Shown: positions 519 to 49,830 of the stretch, in pieces
How the letters are laid out: every line of letters begins with the position of its first letter
Position numbering within the stretch: the stretch's first letter is position 1
Notes under the pieces: generated by a model
The model's database searches: none
What the model was told of the DNA's origin: nothing
What the model saw: the letters and a program-made list of their open reading frames with translations, nothing else
Assembly: GCF_013315695.1 (NCBI RefSeq)
Contig: NZ_CP054353.1
Reading direction: 5' to 3' (one strand)
DNA: 64,000 bases
Source of the DNA: Escherichia coli
GTDB lineage: Bacteria; Pseudomonadota; Gammaproteobacteria; Enterobacterales; Enterobacteriaceae
Program-made: the position numbers and the translations under genes

Positions 519-679
519 ATGGGGGTCACTCCATTATCGAACTAACCTGACCCCAGATTTGACCACCAATTTTTCCCGATGCGTAGGGTAAAATCAAAAT
601 GCACCGAGAAGAGTTTTCACACTAACCTGTTGAATCAACATCAGATAAAGATTCGCAAGGATGCATGAAAACAGAAAAT

Positions 680-755
680 TGGCTCCTCTGACTGGACTCG
701 AACCAGTGACATACGGATTAACAGTCCGCCGTTCTACCGACTGAACTACAGAGGA
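680..755 (-). tRNA. asnT: tRNA-Asn (GUU)
   Basis: The reverse complement is TCCTCTGTAGTTCAGTCGGTAGAACGGCGGACTGTTAATCCGTATGTCACTGGTTCGAGTCCAGTCAGAGGAGCCA. This gives a cloverleaf with anticodon GTT and an encoded CCA. Confidence 0.95.
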
Positions 756-855
756 ATCGTGTGAACGGGGCGAATATTACTTAGCGGTACCTTGTCTGTC
801 AACACTAAATTTCATAAGCCATTTCAATTGGTTAATTAACCTTCAAACTTGTTAA

Positions 856-1653
856 TTAATGAACATTCGTCGCCGAAAACGAGTCTGTATCATTAGCGTG
901 ATGCAGTCTCTGCAAAGGATCTTGTTGATAAAATTGACAGAAACGTTGCCACAATGAAGGGAAACGAGGAGCAAAAAGTTCTGGGGCGCTAAAGAAATAT
1001 TCAGAAAGTACGGCAAAACATTCAGCAGGATCACTGGCAGCATAAGCATCAATGCTCGCCGCATTCTCACCAACTAATTCGATTTCTTCCTGAATGTTGT
1101 TCATTGCAGCATGAAGATCGTGTTCCCAGCCAGCAACCTCACGCAACGAAATAAAGGGAACTCCGCTGGCGCGATCGCCGTTACGGGTGTCCAGCTTATG
1201 AGCGACTTCATGAATAATCAGGTTAAAACCAGAAGCATCAAAAGAATCTTGTATATCCAACCAGTTCAAAACGATAGGCCCTTGCTGCCAGCTCTGACCT
1301 GACTGAACAATACGTTGGTTATGCACCAGACCGATATCGTCTTCCCATTCATCATCGACCACAAATGGCGCAGGATAAATTAAGATTTCATGAAAACCAT
1401 CCAGCCATTCCAGTCCTAACTCCAGAACGGGCAGGCAAAATAGAAGTGCTATCCGGCAGCTTCTTAATGAATTCAGCTCAAAGCCCTGTAAAGGAACAAG
1501 CCGTTTTTGCTGTAAAAAACGTTCGGCAAGAGCGACCAATTTGCTTTGTTCCTGTTCTGTCAGACACGTTAAAAGGGGGATCGATAGTGCTTCCTGCCAG
1601 GGAAGGGCAGTTTGATGTGCTGATTCTTGTACTTTCCAGGGCCACTTAATCAT
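856..1653 (-). CDS. mtfA: Mlc titration factor A (MtfA/YeeI), 265 aa
   Basis: The translation from [14 protein letters not shown]... contains the HEVAHKLD zinc-peptidase motif. It matches the remembered MtfA sequence and the K-12 neighbourhood (asnT, serU). Confidence 0.93.
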
Positions 1654-1746
1654 CGTTTTGCTCGCAAACTCGTCACTTGAACAAAATTGCACGGACAGGG
1701 ACTGTTAAAATGCCAAATTTCCTGGCATCATGGCAACCATCTGAAC

Positions 1747-1836
1747 GGAGAGATGCCGGAGCGGCTGAACGGACCGGTCTCGAAAACCGGAGTGGGGGCA
1801 ACTCCACCGGGGGTTCAAATCCCCCTCTCTCCGCCA
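1747..1836 (+). tRNA. serU: tRNA-Ser (CGA), long variable arm, encoded CCA; integration target of the prophage
   Basis: The sequence is GGAGAGATGCCGGAGCGGCTGAACGGACCGGTCTCGAAAACCGGAGTGGGGGCAACTCCACCGGGGGTTCAAATCCCCCTCTCTCCGCCA, with anticodon loop CTCGAAA. Confidence 0.95.
1775..1836 (+). repeat. attL core (62 nt, the 3' part of serU), repeated at 49225-49286
   Basis: Direct repeat CGGTCTCGAAAACCGGAGT[G/A]GGGGCAACTC[C/T]ACCGGGGGTTCAAATCCCCCTCTCTCCGCCA. The two copies differ at 2 positions only. Confidence 0.9.
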
Positions 1837-1881
1837 AAATTCAATCACTTACACATCATTAAGTCAGTGACAAAAATCACA

Positions 1882-1912
1882 CTTGGAATTACTTGGAATA
1901 TTTTCTTGGAAT
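1882..1912 (+). promoter_or_regulatory. Three direct CTTGGAAT repeats, likely Int arm-type binding sites (P' arm)
   Basis: CTTGGAAT occurs at 1882-1889, 1892-1899 and 1905-1912, overlapping the int stop codon. The same octamer recurs near attR (49113-49120, and inverted at 49178-49185). Confidence 0.55.
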
Positions 1913-2914
1913 ATTTTCAGGTAACGGGACATCAAGTGTTGGTGAAACTTTAACCTTCCTGTCATAGATTAGCACTTGCCCTTCGGTTTTGTGACCAGAG
2001 AAAAGTTGCTTATCCCGGCTGCTTCCTTCATAGTCTGAAATTCCTTTCGCCTTCAGATCATGAAAGGTGAAGTCGGTTAAAATACCTGAAATTTTTCCAG
2101 CACGATTTCTTGCTTCTACCCACATTTCGTTAAAGCCTTTGTACATATATCGGTTGCCGTATTGATTGCTGATCACATAGGCAGATTTTGGTAACTGTTT
2201 TGCTTTTTCGATCGCTGCCTGTAATCGTGGACTCCATGCTTTTATCTGTTTTTTTCCGGTTTTCCCTTGCTGGATGAATATCCCGTCGTTTCCAATCTGT
2301 TCCCATTTCAGCGATAACACATCGGAAACCCTCGCTGCACACAGATAGGCAATTTCCATTGCGATAAAAACAGGAAGAGGTGCAACGCTTAATACTGCCT
2401 GGTATTCTTTGTCGGTTACATATCGTTCGCGGTTTTTGGCCTTGAATTTACTTACACCTGCACATGGGTTAGCCTTGACGTACCCTCGCTCATACCCCCA
2501 ACTGTAAACACGGGACATACTGCTTTTTTCATGGTTGGCTTGCGTTTTACTCTGCTCCCCTCTTTTGTCCATGTATCGACGGATGTGTTCTGGTTTTATG
2601 GAATCCGCTGGTACCTTACCGAATACGGCAAGCAACTTTTTTTGATGTTGCAGATAATCTTTTTGTGTTCTTGGACTAAGGTCACTGTAATAGGCGCTGG
2701 CGAGGAATTTTTCCCACAAGCGACCGAATGTCATTGCACGATCGCGATTATTTACAGTTTCCTCATACTTTTTCCATAAAGCAGCTAAACCATCCTTGAT
2801 GGCGGTTAGTGTGACAGATTCTCTGGATGTTGGTTTCCATACATAACTATATTTATTTGGGTATACATTTGGAGGTAATTTTTCGTGTTCAGGATTTTTC
2901 CTTCGTCTTCCCAT
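1889..2914 (-). CDS. int: Phage tyrosine integrase (lambda Int family), 341 aa
   Basis: The gene is adjacent to attL. The C-terminal catalytic region has FHDLKAKG ... GHKTEGQVLIYDR (His/Arg/Tyr motif context). It overlaps the xis-like gene by 1 nt. Confidence 0.9.
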   Translation of the reverse strand: MGRRRKNPEHEKLPPNVYPNKYSYVWKPTSRESVTLTAIKDGLAALWKKYEETVNNRDRAMTFGRLWEKFLASAYYSDLSPRTQKDYLQHQKKLLAVFGKVPADSIKPEHIRRYMDKRGEQSKTQANHEKSSMSRVYSWGYERGYVKANPCAGVSKFKAKNRERYVTDKEYQAVLSVAPLPVFIAMEIAYLCAARVSDVLSLKWEQIGNDGIFIQQGKTGKKQIKAWSPRLQAAIEKAKQLPKSAYVISNQYGNRYMYKGFNEMWVEARNRAGKISGILTDFTFHDLKAKGISDYEGSSRDKQLFSGHKTEGQVLIYDRKVKVSPTLDVPLPENIPRKYSK

Positions 2915-3117
2915 CAGATCGCACCAAAATTCGGCTCTACCTCGCGTGGTGGTAAAGTTTTATTGCAGGTAAATAGATCCCGGCTGACAATCGGTTTGCC
3001 ACTACGATTGGTATAGAACGGAAGCCCGTTTTCCATTAACCATTTTCGCTGGTGGCTTGCATATTTGCAGCCCGTTAATATTAGCAATTCATCTTCGGTT
3101 AAAAATAAGCTGCTCAT
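2914..3117 (-). CDS. xis: Excisionase-like small DNA-binding protein (DUF4224-like), 67 aa
   Basis: The position immediately upstream of int and the sequence MSSLFLTEDELLILTGCKYASHQRKWLMENGLPFY... resemble small HTH proteins paired with integrases. Confidence 0.7.
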   Translation of the reverse strand: MSSLFLTEDELLILTGCKYASHQRKWLMENGLPFYTNRSGKPIVSRDLFTCNKTLPPREVEPNFGAI

Positions 3118-3175
3118 AGCTATATCTCATAACCGCCGCTAACTATATACGGTTAGCGGCAATTAGGGTTGAACA

Positions 3176-5617
3176 TTAAAAATCAGCCTGACTCGGGATC
3201 AGTTTTTGCCAGATAGCTGAAACGTATTTTGCCTGGTAACGAGCGTCATCAAGTGCATTATGTCGCTCACCTTCGAATGGAATAGCCGTTCTGGCATCGA
3301 AGTCTATGGCTTTCCCCAGCTCAACGATTGTGCGTACATCGCGATCGTTGTAGTAACGCCACGGGCAGGGGATCCCCTGCCGTTCGTATGAACGGCGCAA
3401 AATCGTGTTGTCGAAGTTGGCTCCATTTCCCCAAACCTGAACAAAAAATTCACCGGAGTTTTCGTCGATAAATTCCCGCAATTGTAACAGTGCATCATCT
3501 AACGGGATTTCATCGGTCATAATGGCAGATTGCGCTTCGCGTGATTGCTTAAGCCACCATTTAATGGTGTCCCGATCAATGACTCCGCCAGCAGTTTCCA
3601 GATCGATAGTCTTACTAAATTCCGGTCCCATATCTCCGGTTTGCGGATCGAAAAATATTGCACCTATTGAGATGATCGGGGCATCAGGATTTTTTCCCAT
3701 GGTTTCAAGGTCGATCATTAGATGGTCACACGTCCTGCTGGTGGATGTGATTTCGTGATGACCGTTCACCTTAATTGAGTGATCTGCCGTCTCGCCAGTT
3801 TTATTATCGCTGGCGTGATGCTGATTGCCGCCAGGGTTCTCCTTGTGTGGATGTTCAGCGCCTTCCATTTCCTCCGGATCATTTTCCTGAACTTCAACCT
3901 GATTCTCTTCATCGAATGTTTCCTGGTATGTTGCGTCGCCCATCACCGCGCCACAATCAGGGCAGTTGCCGCCACCGCTCTGACCGCAGGCGGTGCAGAC
4001 TTTTTCCGGTTCCTGTTGCGCTACTGGTTCGGATTGTTTCGTTTCTGGCTCGTTTTGTAACGCATTTGGGCTGTTTTGTTCCGCTTTTTGGTCGTTCCGT
4101 TCCGATTCATGCTGGTTCTGGTTCACAGAATCGCGAGTCTGGATCCCCTTGACCCATTTCGGATCATTAGGGTCGCTAATCCCCTCAACAAATTCACCAC
4201 GCGATACAGCAAGTAACTTATCGGCGTCAGGCTGGCTGATATTGGCTGCCTGCATAATTTTGTTTGCTTCGTCAGCGGTGACTTTTACTTGGTTAGCGGA
4301 ACTCACCTGCGACTGAGCATCCAGCGACTGCGCGTTCTGGCCATGTTCAGTTGTATCCGGTTCCATTGTTTCAGTTGTTGCCTGTTCACCTGCCATTGCG
4401 TCAGATGGTTGTGGTTTTTCTTCTTCTGTTTCACGCTCAGTAACCACCTCGCGGTTAATTTCTTCCAGGATATCTTTTTCCGGCGTATGCCGGGCAGCTG
4501 TGAGAGTTTCCTTGCTGGGGTTCTCGTGATCAGTTTCCGTCAAATAGGCGTTGATATACCCCTGAAGGCGTCCCGGGTAGTGATAAAATTCAGGGTGTGC
4601 GCTTCGGATAAGTGCAAAAATAGCGGCGCGGGAATAGTCCAGAATACCCGGGGTTGCACGAAGTGCTGCGGACCATTCTTTGAACGGACTTTCTTTGTTC
4701 AGGACTACTTCTTTTGCGCGACGATAAACGCTGCCCGGAATTTCATAAATATTAAAATCCATCGGAAGTGTGGCTGCTGCAATCTCCACATCCAGTGTGT
4801 CGAGGGTGTGTACTAAATTCGGATTGCGATCGGTTTTGTTCCCACCGCCAGCATTAGCACCGGAAGCCGTGCGGGTGATGCGTGAAACACGATTTCCTTT
4901 CATCCACTCTTTTGTCAGCAGACCCCGATCAGTGTAGTCAGCGTCCAGGTATGCTTCGAAAAAAGCAGTTATTAGTCCCAGGTCTGAATTACCAGGATTA
5001 GGGAAAACTTTGTCAGTGTCACGAACCAGTTTGTGGAGGTCGCGAATCTCCAGCGAGTCGAGCAGACTGGTTTTATGCGAAATAGCCAGGGCAGTAACAG
5101 CCGGTAGTTCTTCAGCCCGTGCAATGTGTAATGCCTGGAGTTCGTCGCGTGAAACGTGCGTTACTGGTTTTTCGCTGCCGTGTTGAGCAAGCCAACGAAT
5201 GGGCAGTTCCTGACCGGAGACAGGCAGAAGCATGCTCTCCTCAATCTCAGTCATGTCTTCGCCGTTGATGTTGGTATTGTCAGTGCTGGCTGGTTTGTCC
5301 TGAACAGAGGGGGAAGGGCCGATAAATGTCATTGTGATGCCATCTTTCCCGCCTTTTTCATAGCGGTTGCAGAATTCAGTATCAAACACGCCTTCTGGCG
5401 GAAGGTCGTCAACAACGGGCAAATTGACGCGGACGGGTTTTTTAAAGTCGTCTTCATCATAATCGTTGTCATCCATTGCGGTAATGCAGCGGGAGATTGC
5501 AACAGATAATTTTTTTGCTGTAGCCCAGTAAAAACCACCTTTAATTCCCAGGCGTTTTCTTACTTTGTCATTTTTTGCTTCGCAATATAGTGCAAATTCT
5601 TCTTTATCAGTGCTCAT
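3176..5617 (-). CDS. Large early protein, 813 aa: RecE-like N-terminal region, acidic low-complexity linker with a CxxC..CxxC zinc ribbon, and a C-terminal DEDDh (DnaQ-like) 3'-5' exonuclease domain
   Basis: The N-terminal segment [60 protein letters not shown]... is near-identical to remembered Rac RecE. The C-terminus (MIDLETMG ... [12 protein letters not shown] ... [11 protein letters not shown]) carries the Exo I, II and III DEDDh motifs. Confidence 0.85.
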
Positions 5618-5710
5618 TATTGGTAAACCTCATCACAGATTTAAGGGTGAACAAATCTCTGCCATTGCTGACATATAAGAATGAAACTGGATATTTATTA
5701 CGGTGCTGTT

Positions 5711-5902
5711 TTAAAATCCTGCCGGGATTTCGTTATTATCCTGGTGAATAACTTTATCGACCGGATAACAGTTGCCTGGAATTTTCTGTTCGGTTGCTGC
5801 TGCCATACATTCCTGCATTGTTCTGTGAACACTGACTGCAATATCAACTGGCTCTCCGGAAACAAGAAAAACTGTCAGAACAAGCACAAATGCTGAATTC
5901 AT
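5711..5902 (-). CDS. ydfD: YdfD-like small membrane/lysis protein (DUF1482), 63 aa
   Basis: MNSAFVLVLTVFLVSGEPVDIAVSVHRTMQECMAAATEQKIPGNCYPVDKVIHQDNNEIPAGF matches remembered Qin YdfD. Its start overlaps the dicB stop (ATGA). Confidence 0.85.
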   Translation of the reverse strand: MNSAFVLVLTVFLVSGEPVDIAVSVHRTMQECMAAATEQKIPGNCYPVDKVIHQDNNEIPAGF

Positions 5903-6087
5903 TGTGCACATCCTTTTGGCATCAGACGTAAACGAGCCAGCATTGAAACAATGCATATTTTATTTAATAGCTCCCGTTCTTGTTTTCTCTTGTTAATGGC
6001 ATCTTCAGTAAATACTGGGTTACTGATAGTGACACCAATTTCAAAACAACCTTCAGACGTATTAACGTTTGGTAATAACGTTTTCAT
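5899..6087 (-). CDS. dicB: Cell-division inhibitor DicB, 62 aa
   Basis: MKTLLPNVNTSEGCFEIGVTISNPVFTEDAINKRKQERELLNKICIVSMLARLRLMPKGCAQ appears identical to K-12 DicB as I remember it. The start is the internal ATG of ORF 5899..6192. Confidence 0.92.
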   Translation of the reverse strand: MKTLLPNVNTSEGCFEIGVTISNPVFTEDAINKRKQERELLNKICIVSMLARLRLMPKGCAQ

Positions 6088-6256
6088 TATCGCGTCCTCA
6101 ACAATGAATTTTGTGATGCAGTGCCTGGTGCCTCCAGGTGACGTTAACCAGTTAACAATTAACGCCGGATACAGAGAATCCACCCATAACACTGTTTTTG
6201 GTTTTAACTGTTCCGCGTGCGCTCAGCCGCATTCACCACATCACAAAATTCACTTT

Positions 6257-6314
6257 AAAAAGGGCGGCAGAGCAGTCACGGAGTAAAACTGATACCGCCA
6301 AACGTCACCAGAAA
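6257..6314 (-). ncRNA. dicF: DicF small regulatory RNA (ftsZ-targeting antisense sRNA)
   Basis: The reverse complement reads TTTCTGGTGACGTTTGGCGGTATCAGTTTTACTCCGTGACTGCTCTGCCGCCCTTTTT, which is the DicF sequence including its terminator hairpin and U tract. It lies upstream of dicB, as in Qin. Confidence 0.92.
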
Positions 6315-6654
6315 ATTGATAACAGAGGGCGTTGCAGCGGGGTTGTCACTTAAGCGTATGGTCAACCTGACAACCCGGTGTCCTCAACGGGGAAGGAATA
6401 ACCCCGCCATACTTACCGCCGCGCCATTTCGCGGGTTGCCACAACCGGAAGCGCACGGTCGACGAAAATTTAACGACAGGCTATCTATGAACCAGCTACC
6501 TCGCCGTGCGCTTTCGCGTTATGGTCTGACTTTTCATGGAAATATCCTTTCAGTAAACTGTCAGTGCCGGATGCTCACCCGTGTCCGGCGCACGCACTCC
6601 ACCTCACCCGTGGAGAACTCCTTAATTACCAACCTTAGCTTCGTTGGTTAGCTA

Positions 6655-6873
6655 TTAACGCGGGTATGTAATCATTCTGGCAATGCTTAATGCCGCTGCT
6701 TTTTCCAGCCTGGTGATATCCTGCTCCAGAGAGAACAGATTTTCAGCCTGCTTAGCCCTGGCTTCATTAGCCCATTTCAGATCCTGCGCTGCATTAATTT
6801 TCTGGCGCATCCACTCATAAAGTTCATCATCGGTATAGTCTGGCGCGATGATGACAGGTTCTCGTTTCTGCAT
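6655..6873 (-). CDS. ydfC: YdfC-like protein, 72 aa
   Basis: MQKREPVIIAPDYTDDELYEWMRQKINAAQDLKWANEARAKQAENL... matches remembered Qin YdfC. An AAGGAG RBS lies upstream of the ATG at 6873. Confidence 0.85.
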   Translation of the reverse strand: MQKREPVIIAPDYTDDELYEWMRQKINAAQDLKWANEARAKQAENLFSLEQDITRLEKAAALSIARMITYPR

Positions 6874-6944
6874 GTCAGCTCCTTGTGGTTCGCATTGCCT
6901 GCTTTTAACCACGTCAGGCGAGGTGGTATCCTCTGAGGGGTCTG

Positions 6945-7301
6945 TTACTCGAGAGGAAATTGGTTATGAATACAATCAAGTTTTCTTGCCCAGAATGTGG
7001 TGGCGAAGTCTTTGACACATCCTTTAAGCCGCAGGGCTCTGACAGTTTCGCGGGAGCCATCTGCAAAAATTGTGGTCACCTTGTAACTGAAGATGAGTCC
7101 TCGCAGTTCGATGACGAAATCGTTGACAATATCTTCGGTGCACTCACCAGAGACTTTCTGAAATAAAGACGCATACCGCTTAGTTACCGCTCTGATAATT
7201 CTTACCTGTCCGGCAATGGCGCTGATATCAATATAAAGCGCCATCGCTGTTTCTTTGCTGATCCCTGGACGCCTTCCATTCTGATGTTTGACTTCGCCCA
7301 C
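6945..7301 (-). CDS. Alternative call: first ORF of the dicB-type operon (118 aa, GTG start), function unknown
   Basis: It is correctly placed downstream of the DicA-operator-controlled promoter, with an AGAGGA RBS. However, it is rich in rare AGA/AGG/GGA codons and fully contains the antisense zinc-ribbon ORF. Confidence 0.4.
   Translation of the reverse strand: MGEVKHQNGRRPGISKETAMALYIDISAIAGQVRIIRAVTKRYASLFQKVSGECTEDIVNDFVIELRGLIFSYKVTTIFADGSRETVRALRLKGCVKDFATTFWARKLDCIHNQFPLE
6966..7166 (+). CDS. Candidate 66-aa zinc-ribbon protein (CPECGG..24 aa..CKNCGH), antisense to the dicB operon
   Basis: A GAGGAA RBS lies 7 nt upstream of the ATG. The ORF has two CxxCG knuckles and mostly common E. 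coli codons. It is codon-for-codon antisense to ORF 6945..7301, so only one of the two is likely real. Confidence 0.5.
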   Translation: MNTIKFSCPECGGEVFDTSFKPQGSDSFAGAICKNCGHLVTEDESSQFDDEIVDNIFGALTRDFLK

Positions 7302-7382
7302 TGAGAAATCCTCTGTTTCCCCTTAACGCCGGGGTAGCGGAACTGTTTGCTGAGAACACCGTGCGGTGTCTTGATGGAGATT

Positions 7383-7438
7383 AATTTAGAATAACCTAAC
7401 AGATGTGGCAAGTGTTTTTTGTTAGATTGATCTAACAA
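7383..7438 (-). promoter_or_regulatory. dicB-operon promoter (TTGCCA-N17-TAAATT) with two DicA-type operators (TTAG-N6-CTAA)
   Basis: On the reverse strand the -35 lies at 7406-7411 and the -10 at 7383-7388. The palindromes are TTGTTAGATCAATCTAACAA (7419-7438) and TTAGGTTATTCTAA (7386-7399). Confidence 0.65.
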
Positions 7439-7473
7439 GAAGAGTGAGGGAATCTAAGTGTCTGAAAGGAGTG

Positions 7474-7881
7474 TTATTTTATTGATTTGTTTTTACGTGC
7501 TTTAAGCATTTCTTCGAAGAGTTTATTGAAATTCTCTACTCTTGCGCGCATTTCAGACAGCAAGGCTTCCTGCTCGGAGGATGGAAGAGCATCGAATAAT
7601 TCGATCAATTCTTTGTGGCTGGGAGTTAACTCGGTTTCCACATGAAGTTCTTGTGCTGGCACTGGTGCCTTGTCTTCGTCACCAAACATTAGCCATGTAG
7701 GCGAGCACTTCAGCGCATCAGCTAAAGCAAACAACCGCTTCCCGACTGGTTGGGTTTCGTCTCTTTCCCATTGTGAAATTGTGACGTGAGCTACCCCAGC
7801 GAGGCGAGCGGCTTCTCGTTGTGTTAGGCGTAATTCTTTTCGTCGTGCCAGAACTCGCTGGCCTAGGGTTCTTGTATCCAT
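7474..7881 (-). CDS. dicA: HTH repressor DicA (P22 C2-like immunity repressor), 135 aa
   Basis: The Xre-type HTH (LTQREAARLAGVAHVTISQWERDET) and the C-terminus (...MRARVENFNKLFEEMLKARK) align with remembered K-12 DicA along its whole length. Confidence 0.9.
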   Translation of the reverse strand: MDTRTLGQRVLARRKELRLTQREAARLAGVAHVTISQWERDETQPVGKRLFALADALKCSPTWLMFGDEDKAPVPAQELHVETELTPSHKELIELFDALPSSEQEALLSEMRARVENFNKLFEEMLKARKNKSIK

Positions 7882-7883
7882 AG

Positions 7884-7948
7884 TTAGGTAATTCTAATTT
7901 TTCTTGACTTAGGTATCCCGCGCACATTACTGTTAGAAATATCTAACA
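7884..7948. promoter_or_regulatory. dicA/dicC divergent control region: two more TTAG-N6-CTAA operators and a TTGACT -35 element
   Basis: Operators are TTAGGTAATTCTAA (7884-7897) and TGTTAGAAATATCTAACA (7931-7948). TTGACT lies at 7904-7909, upstream of dicC. Confidence 0.6.
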
Positions 7949-7961
7949 AGAGGGGGCTTTG

Positions 7962-8189
7962 ATGCTTAAAGTTGACGCAATTACTTTTTTTGGCAGCAAA
8001 ACAAAGCTTGCCAATGCCGCAGGAGTGAAACTGGCAAGTGTTGCTGCATGGGGTGAACTGGTTCCTGAAGGTCGCGCGATGCGCCTGCAAGAGGCATCCG
8101 GCGGGGAACTTCAGTACGACCCCAAAGTTTATGACGAATATCGTAAGGCAAAGCGGGCGGGGCGGTTGAACAATGAAAATCACCCCTGA
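7962..8189 (+). CDS. dicC: Cro-like regulator DicC, 75 aa
   Basis: MLKVDAITFFGSKTKLANAAGVKLASVAAWGELVPEGRAMRLQEASGGELQYDPKVYDEYRKAKRAGRLNNENHP closely matches remembered DicC. Confidence 0.9.
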   Translation: MLKVDAITFFGSKTKLANAAGVKLASVAAWGELVPEGRAMRLQEASGGELQYDPKVYDEYRKAKRAGRLNNENHP

Positions 8190-8724
8190 ACAGGTTTGTG
8201 AGGCTCTGGATGCCTGGGTATGTCGACCAGGAATGACACAGGAGCAAGCGACGATATTAATCACGGAAGCATTCTGGGCTCTGAAAGAACGCCCGAACAT
8301 CGATGTTCAACGCGTCACGTTTAATGATGGCGAGGTTGATCAACGGGCGCTGGGCGTTAACCGAGTGAAGATATTCGAACGCTGGAAAGCTATCGACACC
8401 AGGGATAAGCGGAAAAAATTCACGGCGCTGATTCCGGCAATTATGGAGGCTATCCGAATTAGTGATTTCAGGTTGTATCGTGAGATCAGTGATGGAAAAA
8501 GCATTACGTACATGATCGCCGGATTAAACAAAGAATATGGCGATGTGGTGGAGTCCGGGCTGCTTTTTGCGGATCCAGCTGTTGTGGAACGTGAGACTGA
8601 CGAGCTTATAGAAAAAGCTATTGCTTTCAAGCATGCGTATCGTCAGCAATATCAATATTACTTTGCAGATAAACAAATGTCTGCCAGGGGTTTGTATGAG
8701 TATCGATGCACTACGATGGGCTAA
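8173..8724 (+). CDS. YdaT-domain protein (CII-position regulator), 183 aa
   Basis: It sits right after the cro-like gene. The segment IFERWKAIDTRDKRKKFTALIPAIMEAI parallels Rac YdaT (IYHRWLKGETKTQREKIQKLIPAILAIL). Confidence 0.65.
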   Translation: MKITPEQVCEALDAWVCRPGMTQEQATILITEAFWALKERPNIDVQRVTFNDGEVDQRALGVNRVKIFERWKAIDTRDKRKKFTALIPAIMEAIRISDFRLYREISDGKSITYMIAGLNKEYGDVVESGLLFADPAVVERETDELIEKAIAFKHAYRQQYQYYFADKQMSARGLYEYRCTTMG

Positions 8725-9736
8725 AAAGGTGAAAACCGGCAGTTCATCCAGTAAGTCTGTATTGACCTGGCTTGCTGATATGTGCGGTGCCGATTTGTGT
8801 GCATACCCGTCTGTATCTGCACTGGCAGAAGTAACGGAACTAAACAAAAAGACTGTGCAGGACAGCTTACGACACCTGATGGAGATTGGGTTAATTGTTG
8901 ATACCGGTGAGAGAAAAGGCAGAACAAAGCAAATTGTGGTGTACCGACTTATCGGTGTAGAAGAAAGTGTTGCCGAGCCTGAATACACCCAAAAACGGGA
9001 GTCTTTAAAGGTGGGTAAAATTGGTGCTGTTAATAAAAACAGTACCGAAAATGGTTATGTTTCAGCACAAAACAGACCCAAAAACGGAACTCTTAGCTGC
9101 ATGGAAAATAACCAAAGACACCCAAATTTTCCATCAAAGACACCCAAAAACGGATCACGGAACCCAAAGGAACCCAAAGATCTAAACCCCACACATAACG
9201 CACGCGAGAGTGCTCCGACCAGTGAGCAGGAAGTTTTGTCGTTACAGGCAGCACCCCTTGTATTCCTGGATGGCCTGAGCGAACCCATCGGAAAATTTCC
9301 GATGACCGATAGCTGGTATCCGTCACGGGATTTTCGACGACGGGCTGCGTTGTGGGGGATGGCTTTGCCGGAGACAGAATTTACACCTGCTGAACTTGCC
9401 GCCTTCCGGGACTACTGGGCAGCGGAGGGGAAAGTGTTTACGCAGATTCAGTGGGAGCAGAAATTCGCCCGTCACGTAAATCACGTCAGGGCGCAGGTTA
9501 AACCAGTCAGCAAGGGGGTAAACCATGCAGCAGCACCAGGTGGCACCGCATCACGGGCAGTTCAGGAAATTCGGGCAGCACGTGAGCAGTGGGAACGTGA
9601 AAACGGATTTATCAGCGACGGAAACGGTCTGGAAGCTGTGGGAACTCATGGGGGAGGTTTATTCGAACCGCTGGACCCAGAAGAACGGGGCCGCACCTTC
9701 GAAGCTCTGGATTGCACAGATTGGCGCGATGACTGA
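8696..9736 (+). CDS. Replication initiator (O-like): N-terminal winged HTH, C-terminal DnaT-like domain
   Basis: MSIDALRWAKKVKTGSSSSKSVLTWLADMCG... is typical of phage replication-protein N-termini. The position upstream of the P-like gene fits. The start was chosen at the internal ATG 8696. Confidence 0.7.
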   Translation: MSIDALRWAKKVKTGSSSSKSVLTWLADMCGADLCAYPSVSALAEVTELNKKTVQDSLRHLMEIGLIVDTGERKGRTKQIVVYRLIGVEESVAEPEYTQKRESLKVGKIGAVNKNSTENGYVSAQNRPKNGTLSCMENNQRHPNFPSKTPKNGSRNPKEPKDLNPTHNARESAPTSEQEVLSLQAAPLVFLDGLSEPIGKFPMTDSWYPSRDFRRRAALWGMALPETEFTPAELAAFRDYWAAEGKVFTQIQWEQKFARHVNHVRAQVKPVSKGVNHAAAPGGTASRAVQEIRAAREQWERENGFISDGNGLEAVGTHGGGLFEPLDPEERGRTFEALDCTDWRDD

Positions 9737-25818: not shown

Positions 25819-25830
25819 GGGCGGCGACCT
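25819..25830 (+). other. cos: cosN cohesive-end sequence GGGCGGCGACCT (identical to lambda)
   Basis: The context ACGGGGCGGCGACCTCGCGGGTTTTCGCTATTTATGAAAATTTTCCGG matches the lambda genome left end as remembered. Confidence 0.9.
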
Positions 25831-26013: not shown

Positions 26014-26523
26014 GTGGCTACGCAGACTGAAGTTGCCAGGCATTTAAGTCTGACCGATCGCCAGCTTCGCAGATTGCAGAAATTGCCGGGTGCCCCGATA
26101 TCGAATAAGCGAGGGCAACTGGATCTGGATGCCTGGCGCGATTTTTACATATCGTATCTGAGAAGAAGTAAAAACGATGTGCCTGATGGCGATAGCGAAG
26201 ACGACTATGAGGAGAAATTGCTTATTGCCAGATGGGAACTGACAGCAGAACAGGCTGTTACACAGCAGTTAAAAAATGAGGTGTCAAAAGGAAAACTTAT
26301 TGACACCGGGTTCTGTATTTTTGCCCTCAGCAAGCTGGCAATGGCGTTATCCAGTACGCTTGATTCCATCCCTTTATCCATGCAGCGACAGTTTCCTGAT
26401 TTAACACCGCGCCATCTTGACCATCTGAAAACCCTTATTGCGAAGGGGGCAAATCAGTGTGCGCGGGCGGGGGATAAATTACCGGATTTACTCGATGAAT
26501 ATATCAGAGCAACAACTGAATAA
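26014..26523 (+). CDS. nu1: Terminase small subunit (Nu1-like), 169 aa
   Basis: It has an N-terminal HTH (TEVARHLSLTDRQLRRLQK) and C-terminal similarity to lambda Nu1 (..SIPLSMQRQFPDLTPRHLDHLKTLIAKG..). The position is right after cos. Confidence 0.85.
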   Translation: MATQTEVARHLSLTDRQLRRLQKLPGAPISNKRGQLDLDAWRDFYISYLRRSKNDVPDGDSEDDYEEKLLIARWELTAEQAVTQQLKNEVSKGKLIDTGFCIFALSKLAMALSSTLDSIPLSMQRQFPDLTPRHLDHLKTLIAKGANQCARAGDKLPDLLDEYIRATTE

Positions 26524-28412
26524 TATGATGAGTGCTGTCACAACAGCATTACAGCCCCTGATAAGGGCATTGCCGGTGACGCCAGTTGAATGGGCTGATC
26601 AAAATTATTATCTGCCTAAAGAATCTTCATATGGTGAGGGAGAATGGAAAACGCTGCCGTTCCAGATCGCCATCATGAACAGCATGGGGAATGATCAGAT
26701 CCGGACTGTTAATCTGATTAAATCTGCCCGTGTTGGCTATACAAAGATGTTGCTGGGGGTGGTCGGGTATTTTATTGAGCATAAATCCCGAAACAGTCTG
26801 CTTTTTCAGCCCACGGATTCTGCCGCTGAAGATTTTATGAAGTCTCACGTGGAGGCGACGATTCGGGATGTGCCATGTCTGAAAGACCTTTCTCCATGGC
26901 TGGGGCGTAAACATCGTGACAATACTCTCACGCTGAAACGCTTTTCATCGGGTGTGGGCTTCTGGTGCCTGGGCGGCGCTGCCGCCAAAAACTACCGTGA
27001 AAAATCCGTGGACGTGGTCTGCTATGACGAACTTTCCTCGTTCGAACCGGATGTCGAAAAAGAGGGTTCGCCAACCCTGCTTGGGGATAAACGTATTGAG
27101 GGCTCTGTATGGCCCAAATCCATTCGCGGCTCGACGCCTAAAATCAAAGGCACCTGCCAGATCGAAAAAGCGGCCAACGAGTCGGCGCATTTCATGCGTT
27201 TTTATGTGCCCTGCCCGCACTGTGGGGAGGCGCAGTATCTGAAATTTGGCGATGAGTCCACGCCTTTTGGCCTTAAATGGGAGAAGGACAGCCCCGAAAG
27301 CGTTTTCTACCTCTGTGAACATCATGGCTGCGTGATCCATCAGTCTGAGCTTGACCAGAGCAACGGGCGGTGGATCTGTGAAAACACGGGGATGTGGACC
27401 CGCGACGGTCTGACGTTTTTCAGCGCTGCGGATAATGAAATTCCGCCGCCGCGCTCCATCACATTCCATATCTGGACGGCGTACAGTCCGTTCACCACCT
27501 GGGTACAGATTGTCTATGACTGGCTGGATGCACTGAAAGATCCCAACGGCCTGAAAACCTTTGTGAACACCACGCTGGGCGAGACCTGGGAAGAGGCCGT
27601 GGGCGAAAAACTCGATCACCAGGTGCTGATGGATAAGGTTGTGCGTTACACGGCTGCGGTGCCTTCCCGGGTGGTTTATCTGACGGCGGGCATTGACTCG
27701 CAGCGAAACCGTTTTGAGATGTATGTCTGGGGATGGGCTCCGGGAGAGGAAGCCTTTCTGGTGGATAAAATCATCATTATGGGGCGTCCCGATGAGGAAG
27801 AGACGCTGTTACGTGTGGATGTGGCGATCAACAAAAAATACCGCCATGCAGACGGAACCGAAATGACCATTTCCCGTGTCTGCTGGGACACCGGGGGGAA
27901 TTGTCTATCAGAGGTCAAAAAAACACGGTGTTTTCCGGGTGCTGCCGGTAAAAGGTGCATCTGTTTATGGCAAGCCGGTGATCACCATGCCAAAAACCCG
28001 CAATCAGCGGGGCGTGTATCTGTGCGAAGTGGGGACGGACACCGCAAAAGAAATTCTCTATGCCCGTATGAAAGCCGATCCCACGCCTGCGGATGAAGCC
28101 ACGTCGTATGCCATCCGTTTTCCTGATGATCCGGAGATTTTTTCGCAGACAGAGGCGCAGCAACTGGTGGCGGAAGAGCTTGTGGAGAAGTGGGAAAAAG
28201 GAAAGATGCGTCTGCTGTGGGATAACAAAAAGCGGCGTAACGAAGCGCTGGACTGCCTGGTGTATGCCTACGCGGCATTACGTGTGTCCGTGCAACGCTG
28301 GCAGCTTGATCTGGCTGTACTGGCAAAATCCCGGGAAGAAGAGACGACCCGGCCAACCCTTAAAGAACTGGCAGCGAAGCTGTCCGGAGGAGTGAATGGT
28401 TACAGTCGCTGA
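26495..28412 (+). pseudogene. A: Terminase large subunit (gpA-like), reading frame broken near 27899
   Basis: Frame 1 (MNISEQQLNN...CWDTGG) and frame 2 (IVYQRSKKHGVFRVLPVKGASVYGKPV...) together align with lambda gpA end to end. At the junction the lambda residues IDPT are missing and one extra nt remains (GGGGGGAATTGTC). Confidence 0.85.
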
Positions 28413-28602
28413 ACTGCAGGCGCTGCGTCAGGCGCGCCTTGATTTATTAACCGGTAAACGGGTGGTGTCTGTCCAGAAAGATGGTCGCAGAATTGAATAT
28501 ACGGCAGCTTCTCTGGATGAGCTTAACCGGGCGATCAATGATGCGGAGTCGGTACTGGGGACAACCCGCCGTCGCCGTCGTCCGCTGGGAGTGAGGTTAT
28601 GA
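28396..28602 (+). CDS. W: Head-tail joining protein W, 68 aa
   Basis: LLTGKRVVSVQKDGRRIEYTAASLDEL aligns with lambda gpW. Confidence 0.9.
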   Translation: MVTVAELQALRQARLDLLTGKRVVSVQKDGRRIEYTAASLDELNRAINDAESVLGTTRRRRRPLGVRL

Positions 28603-30191
28603 AACGAACGCCTGTCCTGATTGATGTGAACGGCGTTCCGCTTCGGGAGAGCCTCAGCTACAACGGTGGCGGTGCAGGATTTGGCGGGCAAATGGCAGAG
28701 TGGTTGCCACCCTCGCAGAGTGCCGATGCGGCCCTGCTGCCCGCGTTGCGTCTGGGGAATGCCCGTGCAGATGATCTGGTGCGCAATAACGGAATAGCGG
28801 CCAATGCGGTGGCCCTGCATAAGGATCACATTGTCGGGCATATGTTTCTGATCAGTTACCGTCCGAACTGGCGCTGGCTGGGGATGCGGGAGACCGCGGC
28901 AAAAAGTTTTGTCGATGAGGTGGAGGCGGCCTGGTCAGAATACGCAGAAGGGATGTTTGGTGAGATCGACATGGAAGGGAAACGCACGTTCACGGAATTT
29001 ATCCGTGAAGGTGTGGGCGTTCATGCGTTTAACGGCGAAATCTTTGTGCAGCCGGTCTGGGATACGGAGAGCACGCAACTGTTTCGTACGCGTTTTAAAG
29101 CCGTGAGTCCGAAACGGGTGGACACGCCAGGACACGGTATGGGGAACCGTTTTCTGCGGGCCGGTGTGGAGGTCGATCGATATGGTCGTGCCGTTGCGTA
29201 CCATATCTGTGAGGATGATTTTCCTCGCTCCGGGAGTGGACGATGGGAACGGATCCCGCGTGAACTTCCCACCGGGCGTCCGGCCATGCTGCATATTTTC
29301 GAGCCGGTGGAGGACGGGCAGACCCGTGGGGCCAATCAGTTTTACAGCGTAATGGAACGGCTGAAGATGCTCGATTCCCTGCAGGCAACACAGCTTCAGT
29401 CGGCCATAGTGAAGGCGATGTATGCAGCGACGATTGAAAGTGAACTTGATACCGAAAAGGCCTTTGAATATATCGCCGGTGCGCCGCAGGGGCAGAAGGA
29501 TAATCCGCTTATTAATATTCTGGAGAAGTTCTCCACCTGGTATGACACGAATAGCGTGACGCTGGGCGGTGTCAAAATTCCGCACCTTTTCCCCGGTGAT
29601 GATCTGAAACTTCAGACCGCGCAGGATTCAGACAATGGATTTTCGGCGCTTGAACAGGCGCTGCTGCGGTATATCGCCGCCGGTCTTGGCGTTTCCTACG
29701 AACAGTTGTCCCGTGATTACTCGAAGGTCAGTTATTCAAGTGCCCGCGCATCCGCCAATGAGTCGTGGCGCTATTTTATGGGGCGGCGAAAATTTATTGC
29801 GTCCCGGCTGGCCACGCAGATGTTTTCCTGCTGGCTGGAAGAGGCACTTCTTCGGGGGATTATTCGTCCGCCACGGGCGCGTTTTGATTTTTATCAGGCG
29901 CGATCAGCCTGGTCACGGGCTGAGTGGATTGGAGCCGGAAGAATGGCCATTGACGGGCTCAAGGAGGTTCAGGAATCAGTGATGCGCATTGAGGCCGGAC
30001 TGAGCACGTATGAGAAAGAGCTGGCGCTGATGGGCGAGGATTATCAGGACATTTTCCGCCAGCAGGTCAGGGAATCTGCAGAGCGGGAAAAAGCCGGACT
30101 CTCACGTCCGGTGTGGATAGCGCAGGCGTATCAGCAGCAGATAGCGGAGAGTCGCAGGCCGGAAGAGGAGACAACACCACGTGAGACGTAA
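28599..30191 (+). CDS. B: Portal protein B, 530 aa
   Basis: The size, position and similarity match the lambda gpB family. Confidence 0.9.
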   Translation: MKRTPVLIDVNGVPLRESLSYNGGGAGFGGQMAEWLPPSQSADAALLPALRLGNARADDLVRNNGIAANAVALHKDHIVGHMFLISYRPNWRWLGMRETAAKSFVDEVEAAWSEYAEGMFGEIDMEGKRTFTEFIREGVGVHAFNGEIFVQPVWDTESTQLFRTRFKAVSPKRVDTPGHGMGNRFLRAGVEVDRYGRAVAYHICEDDFPRSGSGRWERIPRELPTGRPAMLHIFEPVEDGQTRGANQFYSVMERLKMLDSLQATQLQSAIVKAMYAATIESELDTEKAFEYIAGAPQGQKDNPLINILEKFSTWYDTNSVTLGGVKIPHLFPGDDLKLQTAQDSDNGFSALEQALLRYIAAGLGVSYEQLSRDYSKVSYSSARASANESWRYFMGRRKFIASRLATQMFSCWLEEALLRGIIRPPRARFDFYQARSAWSRAEWIGAGRMAIDGLKEVQESVMRIEAGLSTYEKELALMGEDYQDIFRQQVRESAEREKAGLSRPVWIAQAYQQQIAESRRPEEETTPRET

Positions 30192-39444: not shown

Positions 39445-40142
39445 TGCAGGATATTCGCGAAGAAAGTCTGAACGAGTCGGTTAAGTCAGAGCAGTCACCG
39501 CGGGTGGTACTCTGGGAAATCGACCTGACGGTACAGGGTGGTGAGCGGTATTTTTTCTGTAATGAGCTGAATGAAAAAGGGGAGCCGGTCACCTGGCAGG
39601 GGCGTAAGTATGAGGCATACCCGATTGACGGCAGCGGCTTTGAGATGAACGGCCGGGGCAGCAGTGCCAGACCGTCGCTGACGGTGTCCAATCTGTTCGG
39701 TCTGGTCACCGGGATGGCGGAAGACCTGCAGAGTCTGGTGGGGGCCACGGTGGTCCGCCGCCGGGTGTATGCCCGTTTTCTGGATGCGGTGAATTTCGTT
39801 GCGGGCAATCCGGAGGCGGACCCGGAGCAGGAGCTGAGTGACCGCTGGGTGGTGGAGCAGATGTCGCAGCTGACAGCCATGACGGCCTCGTTTGTGCTGG
39901 CCACACCGACCGAGACGGACGGGGCGCTGTTTCCCGGTCGCATCATGCTGGCGAACACCTGTATGTGGGATTACCGGGGAGATGAATGCGGGTATAACGG
40001 TCCTGCGGTGGCGGATGAGTTCGACAACCCCACCACGGATATCCGTAAGGACAGATGCAGCAAGTGCATGCGCGGGTGTGAGATGCGCGGCATGGTGGCT
40101 AATTTTGGCGGTTTCCTTTCCATTAACAAACTTTCGCAGTAA
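39444..40142 (+). CDS. L: Minor tail protein L, 232 aa
   Basis: Same length and position as lambda gpL, with the C-terminal Cys cluster (CGY..CSKCMRGCEMRG). Confidence 0.9.
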   Translation: MQDIREESLNESVKSEQSPRVVLWEIDLTVQGGERYFFCNELNEKGEPVTWQGRKYEAYPIDGSGFEMNGRGSSARPSLTVSNLFGLVTGMAEDLQSLVGATVVRRRVYARFLDAVNFVAGNPEADPEQELSDRWVVEQMSQLTAMTASFVLATPTETDGALFPGRIMLANTCMWDYRGDECGYNGPAVADEFDNPTTDIRKDRCSKCMRGCEMRGMVANFGGFLSINKLSQ

Positions 40143-40147
40143 ATCCA

Positions 40148-40891
40148 ATGACACAGACAGAATCAGCGATTCTGGCGCATGCCCGGCGGTGTGTGCCTGC
40201 GGAGTCGTGCGGCTTAGTGGTGAGAACGCCGGAGGGGGAGCGGTATATCCCTTGTGTGAATATCTCTGCAGAGCCGGAGGCGTATTTTCGTATTGCACCG
40301 GAAGACTGGCTGCGGGCAGAGATGCAGGGGGAGATTGTGGCACTGGTCCACAGTCATCCCGGTGGGCTGCCCTGGCTGAGCGAGGCTGACCGGCGGCTGC
40401 AGATAAAAAGCGCACTGCCCTGGTGGCTGGTCTGCCGGGGTGACATTCACAAATTCCGCTGCGTGCCGCACCTGACGGGACGGCGCTTTGAGCACGGGGT
40501 GACGGACTGTTACACCCTGTTCCGGGATGCATACCATCTGGCGGGGACTGAAATGCCGGATTTTCATCGCGAGGATGACTGGTGGCGCAACGGTCAGAAC
40601 CTTTACCTGGACAATATGGCGGTCACCGGCTTTTACCGGGTGCCCCTGTCCTCTGCACAGGCGGGCGATATTCTGCTGTGCTGCTTTGGTGCTTCGGTAC
40701 CGAACCATGCCGCCATTTACTGCGGCAACGGTGAGCTGCTTCACCATCTGCCTGAACAACTGAGTAAACGGGAGAGGTATTCCGAAAAATGGCAACGACG
40801 AACGCATTCTGTCTGGCGTCACCGCCACTGGCACGCATCTGCCTTCACGGGGATTTGCAACGATTTGGCCGCCGCCTCAGCCTGTATGTGA
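40148..40891 (+). CDS. K: Tail tip assembly protein K (MPN/JAB plus NlpC/P60 domains), 247 aa
   Basis: HSHPGG is a JAMM-like motif, and ..DCYTLFRDAY.. is an NlpC/P60 Cys motif. The gene overlaps I by about 100 nt, as in lambda. Confidence 0.88.
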   Translation: MTQTESAILAHARRCVPAESCGLVVRTPEGERYIPCVNISAEPEAYFRIAPEDWLRAEMQGEIVALVHSHPGGLPWLSEADRRLQIKSALPWWLVCRGDIHKFRCVPHLTGRRFEHGVTDCYTLFRDAYHLAGTEMPDFHREDDWWRNGQNLYLDNMAVTGFYRVPLSSAQAGDILLCCFGASVPNHAAIYCGNGELLHHLPEQLSKRERYSEKWQRRTHSVWRHRHWHASAFTGICNDLAAASACM

Positions 40892-49224: not shown

Positions 49225-49286
49225 CGGTCTCGAAAACCGGAGTAGGGGCAACTCTACCGGGGGTTCAAATCCCCCTCTCTCCGCCA
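49225..49286 (+). repeat. attR core: displaced 3' fragment of serU (62 nt)
   Basis: It matches 1775-1836 except for G>A and C>T in the variable-arm stem. Confidence 0.9.
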
Positions 49287-49830
49287 CTTTATCAATGACT
49301 TATCTCCCGACTTCCCGCCTTGCTTTTCCTAAACAGAACAATCGTAGAATATTCTTGAAGGGTTAGATCGTCACTGTTTTCTGTTCGATACTGTGACATT
49401 CAGCACTTGATTCGCTATGGAGCTGACAGGAAGGTTTCGAGCGAAAATCTACAGTTATTCAGTCGTTTTCTTATCGATCACCATTATTCTTTTAGACATT
49501 GATCCTATGAAACTGCCGCAAAGTTGCTGGCGGGAACTGAAGTTGCGTAGAGAAGGGGTCAATAATTGAGCCAAAAAAGGAACGCGGCCGTCAGATTAAA
49601 GCCGCGGGACAAAGTCCATAATTTCCAAGAGTTGTTGAATTTCCCAGCTTTTTTGAAAGCCTTTGTATTATACTAACAAGTAAAAAAGGTTTAAACACCA
49701 AAATTAACCTATATTTCTGGTTAGCTTTACCATGACAGATGACTTGCTCCTGGAAACATTTGCGCTGCCAGTCTGTATGGCTGAGTTGTGTATTTATTGT
49801 TCGCCTTTTTCGCAGTTTTTTTCTACAGAC

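What the first reader, a model, noticed from the sequence alone, without database searches (positions are those of the whole stretch)
27876..27910. Large terminase gene is frame-broken at the WDTGG junction: prophage probably cannot package
gpA-like sequence reads through ...ISRVCWDTGG in one frame. It continues as IVYQRSKKHGVFRVLPVKGASVYGKPV... in the -1-shifted frame. Relative to lambda gpA (CWDTGGIDPTIVYERSKKHG), the four residues IDPT are missing and a single extra base remains (GGGGGGAATTGTC). This is consistent with an 11-bp deletion, or with a 12-bp deletion plus a 1-nt insertion next to a G6 run. All other head, tail, lysis, replication and immunity genes look intact. So this may be a very recent inactivation, a domestication step, or an assembly error.
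Basis: seen in the sequence. Interest (0 to 1): 0.5.

Follow-up and report, generated by a model that had tools for sequence, protein, structure and literature searches.

The report
Prophage terminase gene broken by 11-bp deletion
A lambda-like virus resting in an E. coli chromosome has lost 11 bases from the gene for its DNA-packaging enzyme, so on its own it probably cannot make infectious particles; this is an ordinary, apparently very recent step of prophage decay, or possibly a sequence error.

Summary
The gpA-type large terminase gene (terL) of a ~47.5-kb lambdoid prophage, integrated at tRNA-Ser next to mtfA in E. coli, reads in one frame up to ...CWDTGG (codon 468). It continues in the +1 frame as IVYQRSKKHG....

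Alignment with near-identical relatives shows a clean 11-bp deletion (ATCGATGGCGA, residues IDGE 469-472) directly after a G6 run, at 27898|27899. It splits the nuclease domain in half. About a third of it and the prohead-binding C-terminus (residues 469-642) fall out of frame.

The lesion is private. It is absent from about 1,860 E. coli complete-genome records carrying this gene, from 18 public contigs with an identical portal or capsid protein, and from three large contig collections. The closest relative differs by 6 SNPs in 9.6 kb, with none downstream of the break.

All other named prophage genes, cos, terS and both att sites are intact. No other frame-breaking indel was found, so this is not a generally error-ridden assembly.

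Even an in-frame 12-bp version would remove 4 residues from a segment whose length is constant in 51 of 51 diverse homologues.

Verdict: an ordinary, recent terL pseudogene causing a packaging defect in cis. A co-resident lambdoid prophage might rescue it in trans. Only raw reads can exclude an artefact.

The parts
1747..1836 (+). tRNA-Ser(cga), the integration site; attL core lies within about 1775-1851
   Evidence: ARAGORN. The 78-bp repeat of 1775-1851 recurs at 49225-49302.
1889..2914 (-). Prophage tyrosine integrase (341-aa ORF). Its extreme C-terminal tail carries a 13-bp tandem duplication. The orthologue is flagged 'frameshifted' in relatives.
   Evidence: Pfam Phage_integrase, profile positions 25-165 of 172. 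Relatives' annotation. Sequence read.
25819..25830 (+). cosN, the 12-nt cohesive-end sequence GGGCGGCGACCT with a lambda-type flank; the substrate of terminase
   Evidence: Exact match, the only one in the window.
26014..26523 (+). terS (Nu1-type small terminase), intact
   Evidence: 169 aa, 100% identical to the AVS0790 orthologue. PF07471 Phage_Nu1 on the orthologues.
26495..27898 (+). terL codons 1-468 in native frame: complete GpA_ATPase domain plus the first half of the GpA_nuclease domain, including invariant D401 and D465
   Evidence: Pfam, tblastn q1-468, invariant columns.
27893..27898 (+). G6 run immediately 5' of the deletion junction
   Evidence: Sequence. Relatives also have G6. 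Only 1 of 1707 records has G5.
27898..27899 (+). Deletion junction. The 11 bp ATCGATGGCGA (codons 469-472, IDGE, minus one base) present in all relatives are missing here.
   Evidence: Alignments.
27899..28096 (+). Out-of-frame tail of the truncated product: 65 aberrant codons plus a TGA stop
   Evidence: ORF list and translation.
27900..28412 (+). terL codons 473-642 plus stop, now in the +1 frame: second half of the nuclease domain (G491, G517, K522, H545, E587, D590) and the prohead-binding C-terminus. No convincing own start or ribosome-binding site.
   Evidence: Pfam GpA_nuclease profile positions 158-287. tblastn q466-642. 100% DNA identity to L008. Candidate start contexts.
28396..28602 (+). 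gpW head-tail joining protein, intact; overlaps the terL 3' end
   Evidence: 100% identity, 68 aa.
28599..30191 (+). Portal protein (gpB type), intact; the docking partner of the lost TerL C-terminus
   Evidence: 530 aa. The exact product is found on 9 public contigs.
49225..49302 (+). attR: partial duplicate of the tRNA-Ser 3' part, the right end of the prophage
   Evidence: 91% identity over 78 bp to 1775-1851.

Best explanation
In the sequence as recorded, the large terminase gene of an otherwise complete lambdoid prophage (phage-21/lambda head type, at tRNA-Ser) carries a private 11-bp deletion at codons 469-472.

Translation from the normal start yields a 533-residue product of 468 native residues plus 65 nonsense residues. 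It keeps the TerS-binding and ATPase part and the first half of the nuclease domain, including Asp401 and Asp465. It lacks the second half of that domain (conserved G491, G517, K522, H545, E587, D590) and the C-terminal tail that docks on the portal.

Such a protein should neither nick cosN properly nor bind proheads. After induction the prophage could therefore excise, replicate, build heads and tails and lyse the cell, but not mature and package its own DNA. It is a cis packaging-defective (newly cryptic) prophage.

The event is very recent: the nearest intact relative differs by 6 SNPs in 9.6 kb, with none after the break.

Shown: the deletion, its uniqueness, the domain split and the integrity of everything else. 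Inferred: loss of activity, the phenotype after induction, and that the lesion exists in the cells rather than only in the record.
For: - Exact 11-bp gap against 12 relatives with identical flanks.
- The Pfam GpA_nuclease profile is split at 159/294 between two frames. The intact orthologue matches positions 3-286 in one piece.
- Invariant D401, D465 and G468 lie upstream. Invariant G491 and the at least 90% conserved G517, K522, H545, E587 and D590 lie downstream.
- Loss of only the last 5 residues of lambda gpA (Aam42) already abolishes prohead binding (PMC4856287). The nuclease resides in the C-terminal domain of TerL (PMC7229814).
- The lesion is private. None of about 1,860 E. coli records covering the region has it. 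The junction 39-mer is absent from genome, viral and metagenome contig collections. The truncated product is not on record. All 18 contigs with an identical portal or capsid protein have a 642-aa terL.
- Against a generally bad assembly: it is the only frame-breaking indel in 37 kb aligned at 99.4%, and all other named genes are full length. Contrast L023, where many genes are split.
- An 11-bp loss is not a homopolymer-type error.
- cosN, terS and both att sites are intact.
Against: - No read data are available, so an assembly, consensus or editing artefact cannot be excluded. A lesion seen in one record only is what either a very recent mutation or an artefact would look like.
- No mutational signature supports a natural origin. 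There is only 1 bp of microhomology.
- Loss of function is inferred from domain architecture, conservation and lambda genetics. It was not measured, and no gpA structure exists to map the break (PMC9410871).
- A helper prophage elsewhere in the genome could mask the phenotype.
Confidence: 0.72

Rival explanations
1. This is a sequence artefact. The 11 bases are present in the real genome and were lost during assembly, polishing or later handling of the record, so the prophage has a normal 642-aa terL.
For: - The lesion is unique among thousands of near-identical copies.
- There is zero divergence downstream of the break.
- It lies next to a G6 homopolymer and spans a Dam GATC site. By general knowledge, both contexts are error-prone for some long-read platforms.
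- ExPEC XM shows a 1-base frameshift in the same G-run, which may itself be an error.
Against: - Platform errors at homopolymers are usually 1-2 bases, not 11.
- The G-run itself is still G6, as in relatives.
- The window shows no other frame-breaking indel across about 47 kb of aligned sequence and no other split gene. This is unlike a truly error-ridden assembly such as L023.
Confidence: 0.22
2. The break is bypassed by recoding. A +1 ribosomal slip (or transcriptional slippage) on the G6 run, ACC GGG G|GG AAT to GGA ATT, yields a full-length TerL lacking IDGE at a low level, enough for some packaging.
For: A +1 shift within the G-run would join the two frames exactly, giving WDTGG-IVYQ. G-runs allow tRNA-Gly re-pairing (general knowledge).
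Against: - No relative has this arrangement. All have a continuous ORF, so nothing is conserved or programmed.
- The 0-frame A-site codon is AAT, not a stop or a rare codon.
- There is no stimulatory downstream RNA structure: z = -0.38.
- The product would still lack 4 residues in a segment of constant length in 51 of 51 homologues, 3 residues after the invariant D465.
Confidence: 0.02
3. The truncation is selected (domestication). The 533-aa ATPase-only TerL fragment, or the packaging-dead prophage as a whole, benefits the host. It might act as a dominant-negative subunit that poisons the terminase of related superinfecting or co-resident phages, or it might keep lysogenic-conversion genes while removing the risk of virion production.
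For: The fragment keeps the whole GpA_ATPase domain and N-terminus. Cargo genes (Lom, IraM, hokD, SASA esterase, TonB-like) remain intact. Terminase works as an oligomer (PMC7229814).
Against: - The lesion is in a single sequence, with no lineage carrying it and no time for selection to be visible.
- Lambda Aam42, a gpA truncation, was expected to be recessive and was used as the control for a trans-complementable defect, not a dominant-negative one (PMC4856287).
- Lysis genes remain intact, so induction would still kill the cell.
Confidence: 0.03

Closest known systems
Lambda/phage 21 large terminase gpA/gp2 (Pfam GpA_ATPase PF05876 + GpA_nuclease PF20454)
   Same: Same gene family and same context: cosN, terS (Nu1), terL, gpW, portal, S49 protease, decoration protein, major capsid protein. 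92% DNA identity to phage 21 gene 2 and 97.9% to the PhiR12 phages. The ATPase domain and invariant residues Q57, K76, E179, D401 and D465 are present.
   Different: The window's copy is interrupted at codon 468 by an 11-bp deletion, so residues 469-642 are not made in frame. Every relative examined has a continuous 642-aa ORF, except ExPEC XM, which has a different 1-base frameshift.
Lambda Aam42 and other gene A chain-termination mutants
   Same: C-terminally truncated gpA. Terminase cannot dock on the prohead and no packaging occurs. The defect is recessive and can be complemented in trans (PMC4856287).
   Different: Aam42 loses 5 residues and still nicks cos. Here 174 residues are lost, including half of the nuclease domain, so cos cleavage should fail as well (inference).
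Defective lambdoid prophages of E. coli O157 Sakai (for example Sp4, with nu1 disrupted by an IS)
   Same: Lambdoid prophage with a single lesion in a terminase gene and otherwise usable functions. Such prophages are common, and their DNA can still be packaged by the terminase of a co-resident prophage with a matching cos (PMC2669165).
   Different: The lesion here is a small deletion in terL, not an IS in terS. Whether a helper prophage exists in this genome cannot be seen from the 64-kb window.
Frameshifted terL pseudogene of E. coli ExPEC XM (CXG97_RS07840)
   Same: Same gene and the same G-run. PGAP annotates it as a 'frameshifted' pseudogene.
   Different: ExPEC XM has G5 instead of G6, a 1-base loss, and keeps the 11 bases. 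It is the only one of 1707 records with that variant.

Membership tests
gpA-type large terminase (functional member) | Complete N-terminal GpA_ATPase domain with Walker A Lys and Walker B acidic residues | tested here: met
   PF05876 profile positions 4-247 of 247, E = 1.2e-55. K76 (KSARVGYTK) and D178/E179 (CYDELS) are present in the window ORF and are invariant or nearly invariant in the family.
gpA-type large terminase (functional member) | Contiguous GpA_nuclease domain in one reading frame | tested here: not met
   The profile is split: positions 3-159 in frame 0 and 158-287 in frame +1. The intact orthologue matches 3-286 in one stretch.
gpA-type large terminase (functional member) | All conserved nuclease-domain residues encoded in frame (D401, D465, G491, H545, E587, D590) | tested here: not met
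   D401 and D465 are in frame. G491, G517, K522, H545, E587 and D590 lie after the break.
gpA-type large terminase (functional member) | C-terminal prohead (portal)-binding tail | tested here: not met
   Residues 469-642 are out of frame. The requirement is known from lambda Aam42 (PMC4856287).
gpA-type large terminase (functional member) | Gene context: cos and terS upstream, gpW and portal downstream | tested here: met
   cosN 25819-25830, terS 26014-26523, gpW 28396-28602, portal 28599-30191.
gpA-type large terminase (functional member) | cos-cleavage and packaging activity | not testable with these tools
   Needs induction or in vitro assays.
Programmed ribosomal frameshift site | Two-frame arrangement conserved in relatives | tested here: not met
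   All relatives have a single 642-aa ORF.
Programmed ribosomal frameshift site | Stimulatory element: slow A-site codon or stop, or a stable downstream structure | tested here: not met
   The A-site codon is AAT. Downstream 101 nt fold at -27.5 kcal/mol, z = -0.38.
Complete lambdoid prophage | Both att sites, integrase, immunity and replication, Q, lysis, head and tail genes full length | tested here: met
   attL and attR. More than 50 genes are full length without stops. Caveat: the integrase tail is flagged by PGAP in relatives.

The most novel reading that the evidence does not exclude
The truncated TerL (ATPase and TerS-binding part, without a working nuclease or portal-docking tail) is expressed on induction and acts as a dominant-negative subunit. 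It would interfere with packaging by related lambdoid phages in the same cell, making this a one-step conversion of a packaging gene into an anti-phage or inter-prophage competition factor.
Probability: 0.03. Interest if true: 0.5.

Novelty: already known. Interest (0 to 1): 0.1.

Why it matters
It matters only locally. For annotation, the two ORFs 26495..28096 and 27876..28412 should be merged into one terL pseudogene. The prophage should be scored as 'intact-looking but packaging-defective in cis', a case that prophage-completeness predictors tend to miss.

For the biology of the strain, it predicts lysis without self-packaged virions after induction unless a helper prophage with a matching cos is present. 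It is also a clean example of the first step of prophage decay, caught before any secondary decay.

It opens no new question and is no surprise to a specialist.

Tried and rejected
1. Looked for the same allele elsewhere and found nothing. The searches were megablast against 5,426 complete E. coli genomes, exact junction 39-mer scans of genome contigs, viral contigs and metagenome contigs, and an exact look-up of the truncated product. So I could not show inheritance, which would have proved the lesion real.

2. Tried to find the source genome through exact portal and capsid proteins. I found only very close relatives, all with intact terL.

3. Tested the G-run as a hotspot or phase-variable tract. 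Only 1 of 1707 records has G5, so I rejected this.

4. Tested programmed recoding. It is not conserved and has no stimulatory structure, so I rejected it.

5. Tried to anchor the catalytic residues on a solved structure. Neither phmmer nor a 51-sequence profile finds any terminase in the PDB; the only hits are to the zinc-ribbon insert. The literature confirms that the gpA structure is unsolved (PMC9410871). I used family conservation instead.

6. Did not run structure prediction.

7. Considered a restriction-site-based laboratory origin, because the deleted segment starts with the ClaI site ATCGAT. Nothing supports it.

8. Searched for a paper on the PhiR12 phages and found none. That those relatives are functional rests only on the host field of their records.

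Full report
**1. What is in the sequence**

Frame 0 carries a gpA-like ORF (26438..28096; biological ATG at 26495). It reads ...YRHADGTEMTISRVCWDTGG and then 65 unrelated codons up to a TGA at 28094-28096. The +1 frame (ORF 27876..28412) reads ...GGIVYQRSKKHGVFRVLPVKGASVYGKPV... up to the stop that overlaps gpW. The G6 run is at 27893-27898. The only slips are the direction of the shift (+1, not -1) and the identity of the missing residues.

**2. What the lesion is**

A 601-bp query around the site matches 1,887 records of complete E. coli genomes. The best are 611-612 bp long at 98.2-98.4% identity, so the whole difference is a gap. Alignment with E. coli DA33133, phage PhiR12_1 and ExPEC XM shows that the window lacks exactly ATCGATGGCGA between GGGGGG and AATTGTC, with identical flanks. 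In the relatives this codes G-G-I-D-G-E-I-V-Y, so residues IDGE (469-472) minus one base are gone. There is only 1 bp (A) of junctional microhomology. The deleted piece begins with a ClaI site and overlaps a Dam site, which I note without reading anything into it.

**3. Context**

The window is E. coli chromosome. From left to right it holds:
- the integrase of the yersiniabactin island, asnT and mtfA;
- tRNA-Ser(cga);
- a ~47.5-kb lambdoid prophage from attL (within 1775-1851) to attR (49225-49302);
- zinT, msrQP, hprRS and hchA.

The prophage is colinear at 99.4% over 37 kb with one in strain AVS0790. In that alignment the terL gap is the only indel that breaks a reading frame. The others are intergenic, or are compensated pairs in a mosaic patch of genes L and K.

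I ran tblastn with the annotated proteins of AVS0790 and AF3. Matches were full-length, gapless and stop-free for integrase-adjacent, recombination, immunity (HTH repressor, DicC-like), replication, Q, holin, lysozyme, Rz, terS, W, portal, protease, decoration, capsid, FI, FII, Z, U, V, G, T, tape measure, M, L, K, I, J, Lom and tail-fibre genes. Only terL splits, into q1-468 and q466-642.

cosN (GGGCGGCGACCT) with the lambda-type flank sits at 25819-25830, 184 bp before terS.

The integrase orthologue is flagged 'frameshifted' by PGAP in both relatives, and the window shares that state. The anomaly is a 13-bp tandem duplication in the last few codons, about 20 residues after the GH...Y motif. 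The Pfam integrase match covers profile positions 25-165 of 172, so it is probably harmless.

**4. How private and how recent**

- The junction 39-mer is absent from one-genome-per-species contigs, IMG/VR viral contigs and JGI metagenome contigs.
- The exact truncated product is not on record among 153 billion gene positions.
- Eight contigs encoding the identical portal and ten encoding the identical capsid protein all have a 642-aa terL.
- All 12 relatives that cover the site carry the 11 bases.
- The nearest relatives (GCA_012670865.1 and a Logan assembly of ERR9629489) differ from the window by 4 SNPs in the 4.2 kb from terS to portal. GCA_012670865.1 differs by 6 SNPs in 9.6 kb, none of them in terL downstream of the break.

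So there has been no decay since the event. It is either very recent or not real.

**5. Consequence for the protein**

Pfam places the complete GpA_ATPase domain and GpA_nuclease profile positions 3-159 in the N-fragment, and positions 158-287 in the +1 frame. The intact orthologue matches 3-286 in one piece.

An exhaustive search of 1.84 billion representatives finds 7,376 family members. In an alignment of 51 full-length members at 30-61% identity:
- the invariant residues are Q57, K76, E179, the four zinc-ribbon positions (C240, C243 and C274 invariant; C277 at least 90% conserved), W336, D401, Q403, G454, D465, G468 and G491;
- G517, K522, H545, E587 and D590 are at least 90% conserved.

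The break falls 3 residues after the invariant Asp465 of the D-[ST]-G-G motif. Everything from G491 on is out of frame. The spacing between G468 and the conserved V474-Y475 is identical in all 51 sequences. A 4-residue loss here therefore has no natural precedent, and restoring the frame would not restore a normal protein.

From the literature:
- the endonuclease that nicks cosN lies in the C-terminal domain of TerL (PMC7229814);
- removal of only the last 5 residues of lambda gpA (Aam42) abolishes prohead binding, while remaining complementable in trans (PMC4856287).

No gpA structure is available for mapping the break (PMC9410871). That D401, D465 and D590 form an RNase H-like metal-binding triad is my inference from conservation and from general knowledge of terminase nucleases. 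I did not test it.

The C-fragment has no convincing start or ribosome-binding site of its own.

**6. Mechanism proposed**

On induction the prophage should excise, replicate, assemble proheads and tails, and lyse the cell. Its own terminase would be dead for cos cleavage and for docking, so no self-packaged virions would form.

This is a cis defect. In O157 Sakai the terminase-defective Sp4 is still packaged, most likely by the terminase of Sp14, which has a near-identical cos (PMC2669165). Genomes carrying this terL type hold a median of 2 copies, and one genome (GCA_949768655.1) has two such prophages. Whether this strain has a helper prophage cannot be seen from the window.

**7. Rivals**

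- *Artefact.* I cannot exclude this without reads. Uniqueness and the lack of downstream divergence fit it equally well. Against it, 11 bp is not a homopolymer-type error, the G-run is unchanged, and the window has no other broken gene. L023 shows what an error-ridden assembly of the same prophage type looks like. I put it at about 0.2.
- *G-run hotspot or phase variation.* Rejected: only 1 of 1707 records has G5.
- *Programmed recoding.* Rejected: it is not conserved, the A-site codon AAT is ordinary, and the downstream fold has z = -0.38.
- *Selected truncation (domestication or dominant negative).* There is no evidence for it. It is a single occurrence, and the Aam42 precedent is recessive.

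**8. Verdict**

This is an ordinary, well-understood kind of event: a small frameshifting deletion that turns the large terminase gene of an otherwise intact lambdoid prophage into a pseudogene. The specific allele is not in any public collection searched. Interest is low. The useful outputs are the corrected annotation, the caveat about trans rescue, and the point that 'one base fewer' would not make the gene normal.

Noticed in passing
window 1865-1925 (- strand), 3' end of the integrase gene next to tRNA-Ser: A 13-bp tandem duplication (AAAATATTCCAAG x2) lies in the last codons of the prophage integrase. PGAP flags the orthologue as a 'frameshifted' pseudogene in strains AF3 and AVS0790, and the window shares that state. 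It lies after the GH...Y catalytic-Tyr motif, so it is probably harmless.
   Followed up: partly
L001 (E. coli ExPEC XM, NZ_CP025328.1) locus 1896-3823: A different frameshift in the same terL, in the same G-run (G5 instead of G6), annotated as a pseudogene. It is the only one of 1707 records with that variant, so it may be a sequencing error or an independent lesion.
   Followed up: yes
terL residues 240-277 (window about 27212-27325): [quoted passage not shown] The family profile's only PDB hits are zinc ribbons of ribosomal protein L44e/eL42 and TFIIS-type domains.
   Followed up: partly
window 17368-17618: Two phage-borne tRNA genes lie downstream of the Q antiterminator. One is tRNA with anticodon CAT, called Met by ARAGORN but annotated tRNA-Ile in AVS0790, so it is likely a lysidine-modified Ile2. 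The other is tRNA-Arg(tct).
   Followed up: no
window 39997-40148 (genes L/K boundary): A mosaic patch. Genes L and K are only 94-95% identical in protein to AVS0790, whereas their neighbours are about 100% identical. There are compensated 1-bp indels and a 5-bp intergenic difference, which suggests a recombination tract from another lambdoid phage.
   Followed up: no
window 1-1700: The left edge holds the 3' part of the integrase of the yersiniabactin high-pathogenicity island at tRNA-Asn (680-755), followed by mtfA. The prophage therefore sits one gene away from the HPI.
   Followed up: no
L023 (GCA_045583445.1) whole locus: An assembly of the same prophage type in which the protease, Z, G and tape-measure genes are each split into several ORFs. 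This looks like uncorrected long-read indel errors and is a useful contrast to the window.
   Followed up: no
window 5700-8800: The early region is Qin/Rac-like: dicB, ydfC, an HTH repressor, a DicC-like cro and a YdaT-family protein. hokD, rem and iraM lie further right. All are intact, several being known host-affecting cargo genes.
   Followed up: no
L004 41868-43216 versus window about 50815: AVS0790 carries an IS1397 insertion between zinT and msrQ that the window lacks.
   Followed up: no
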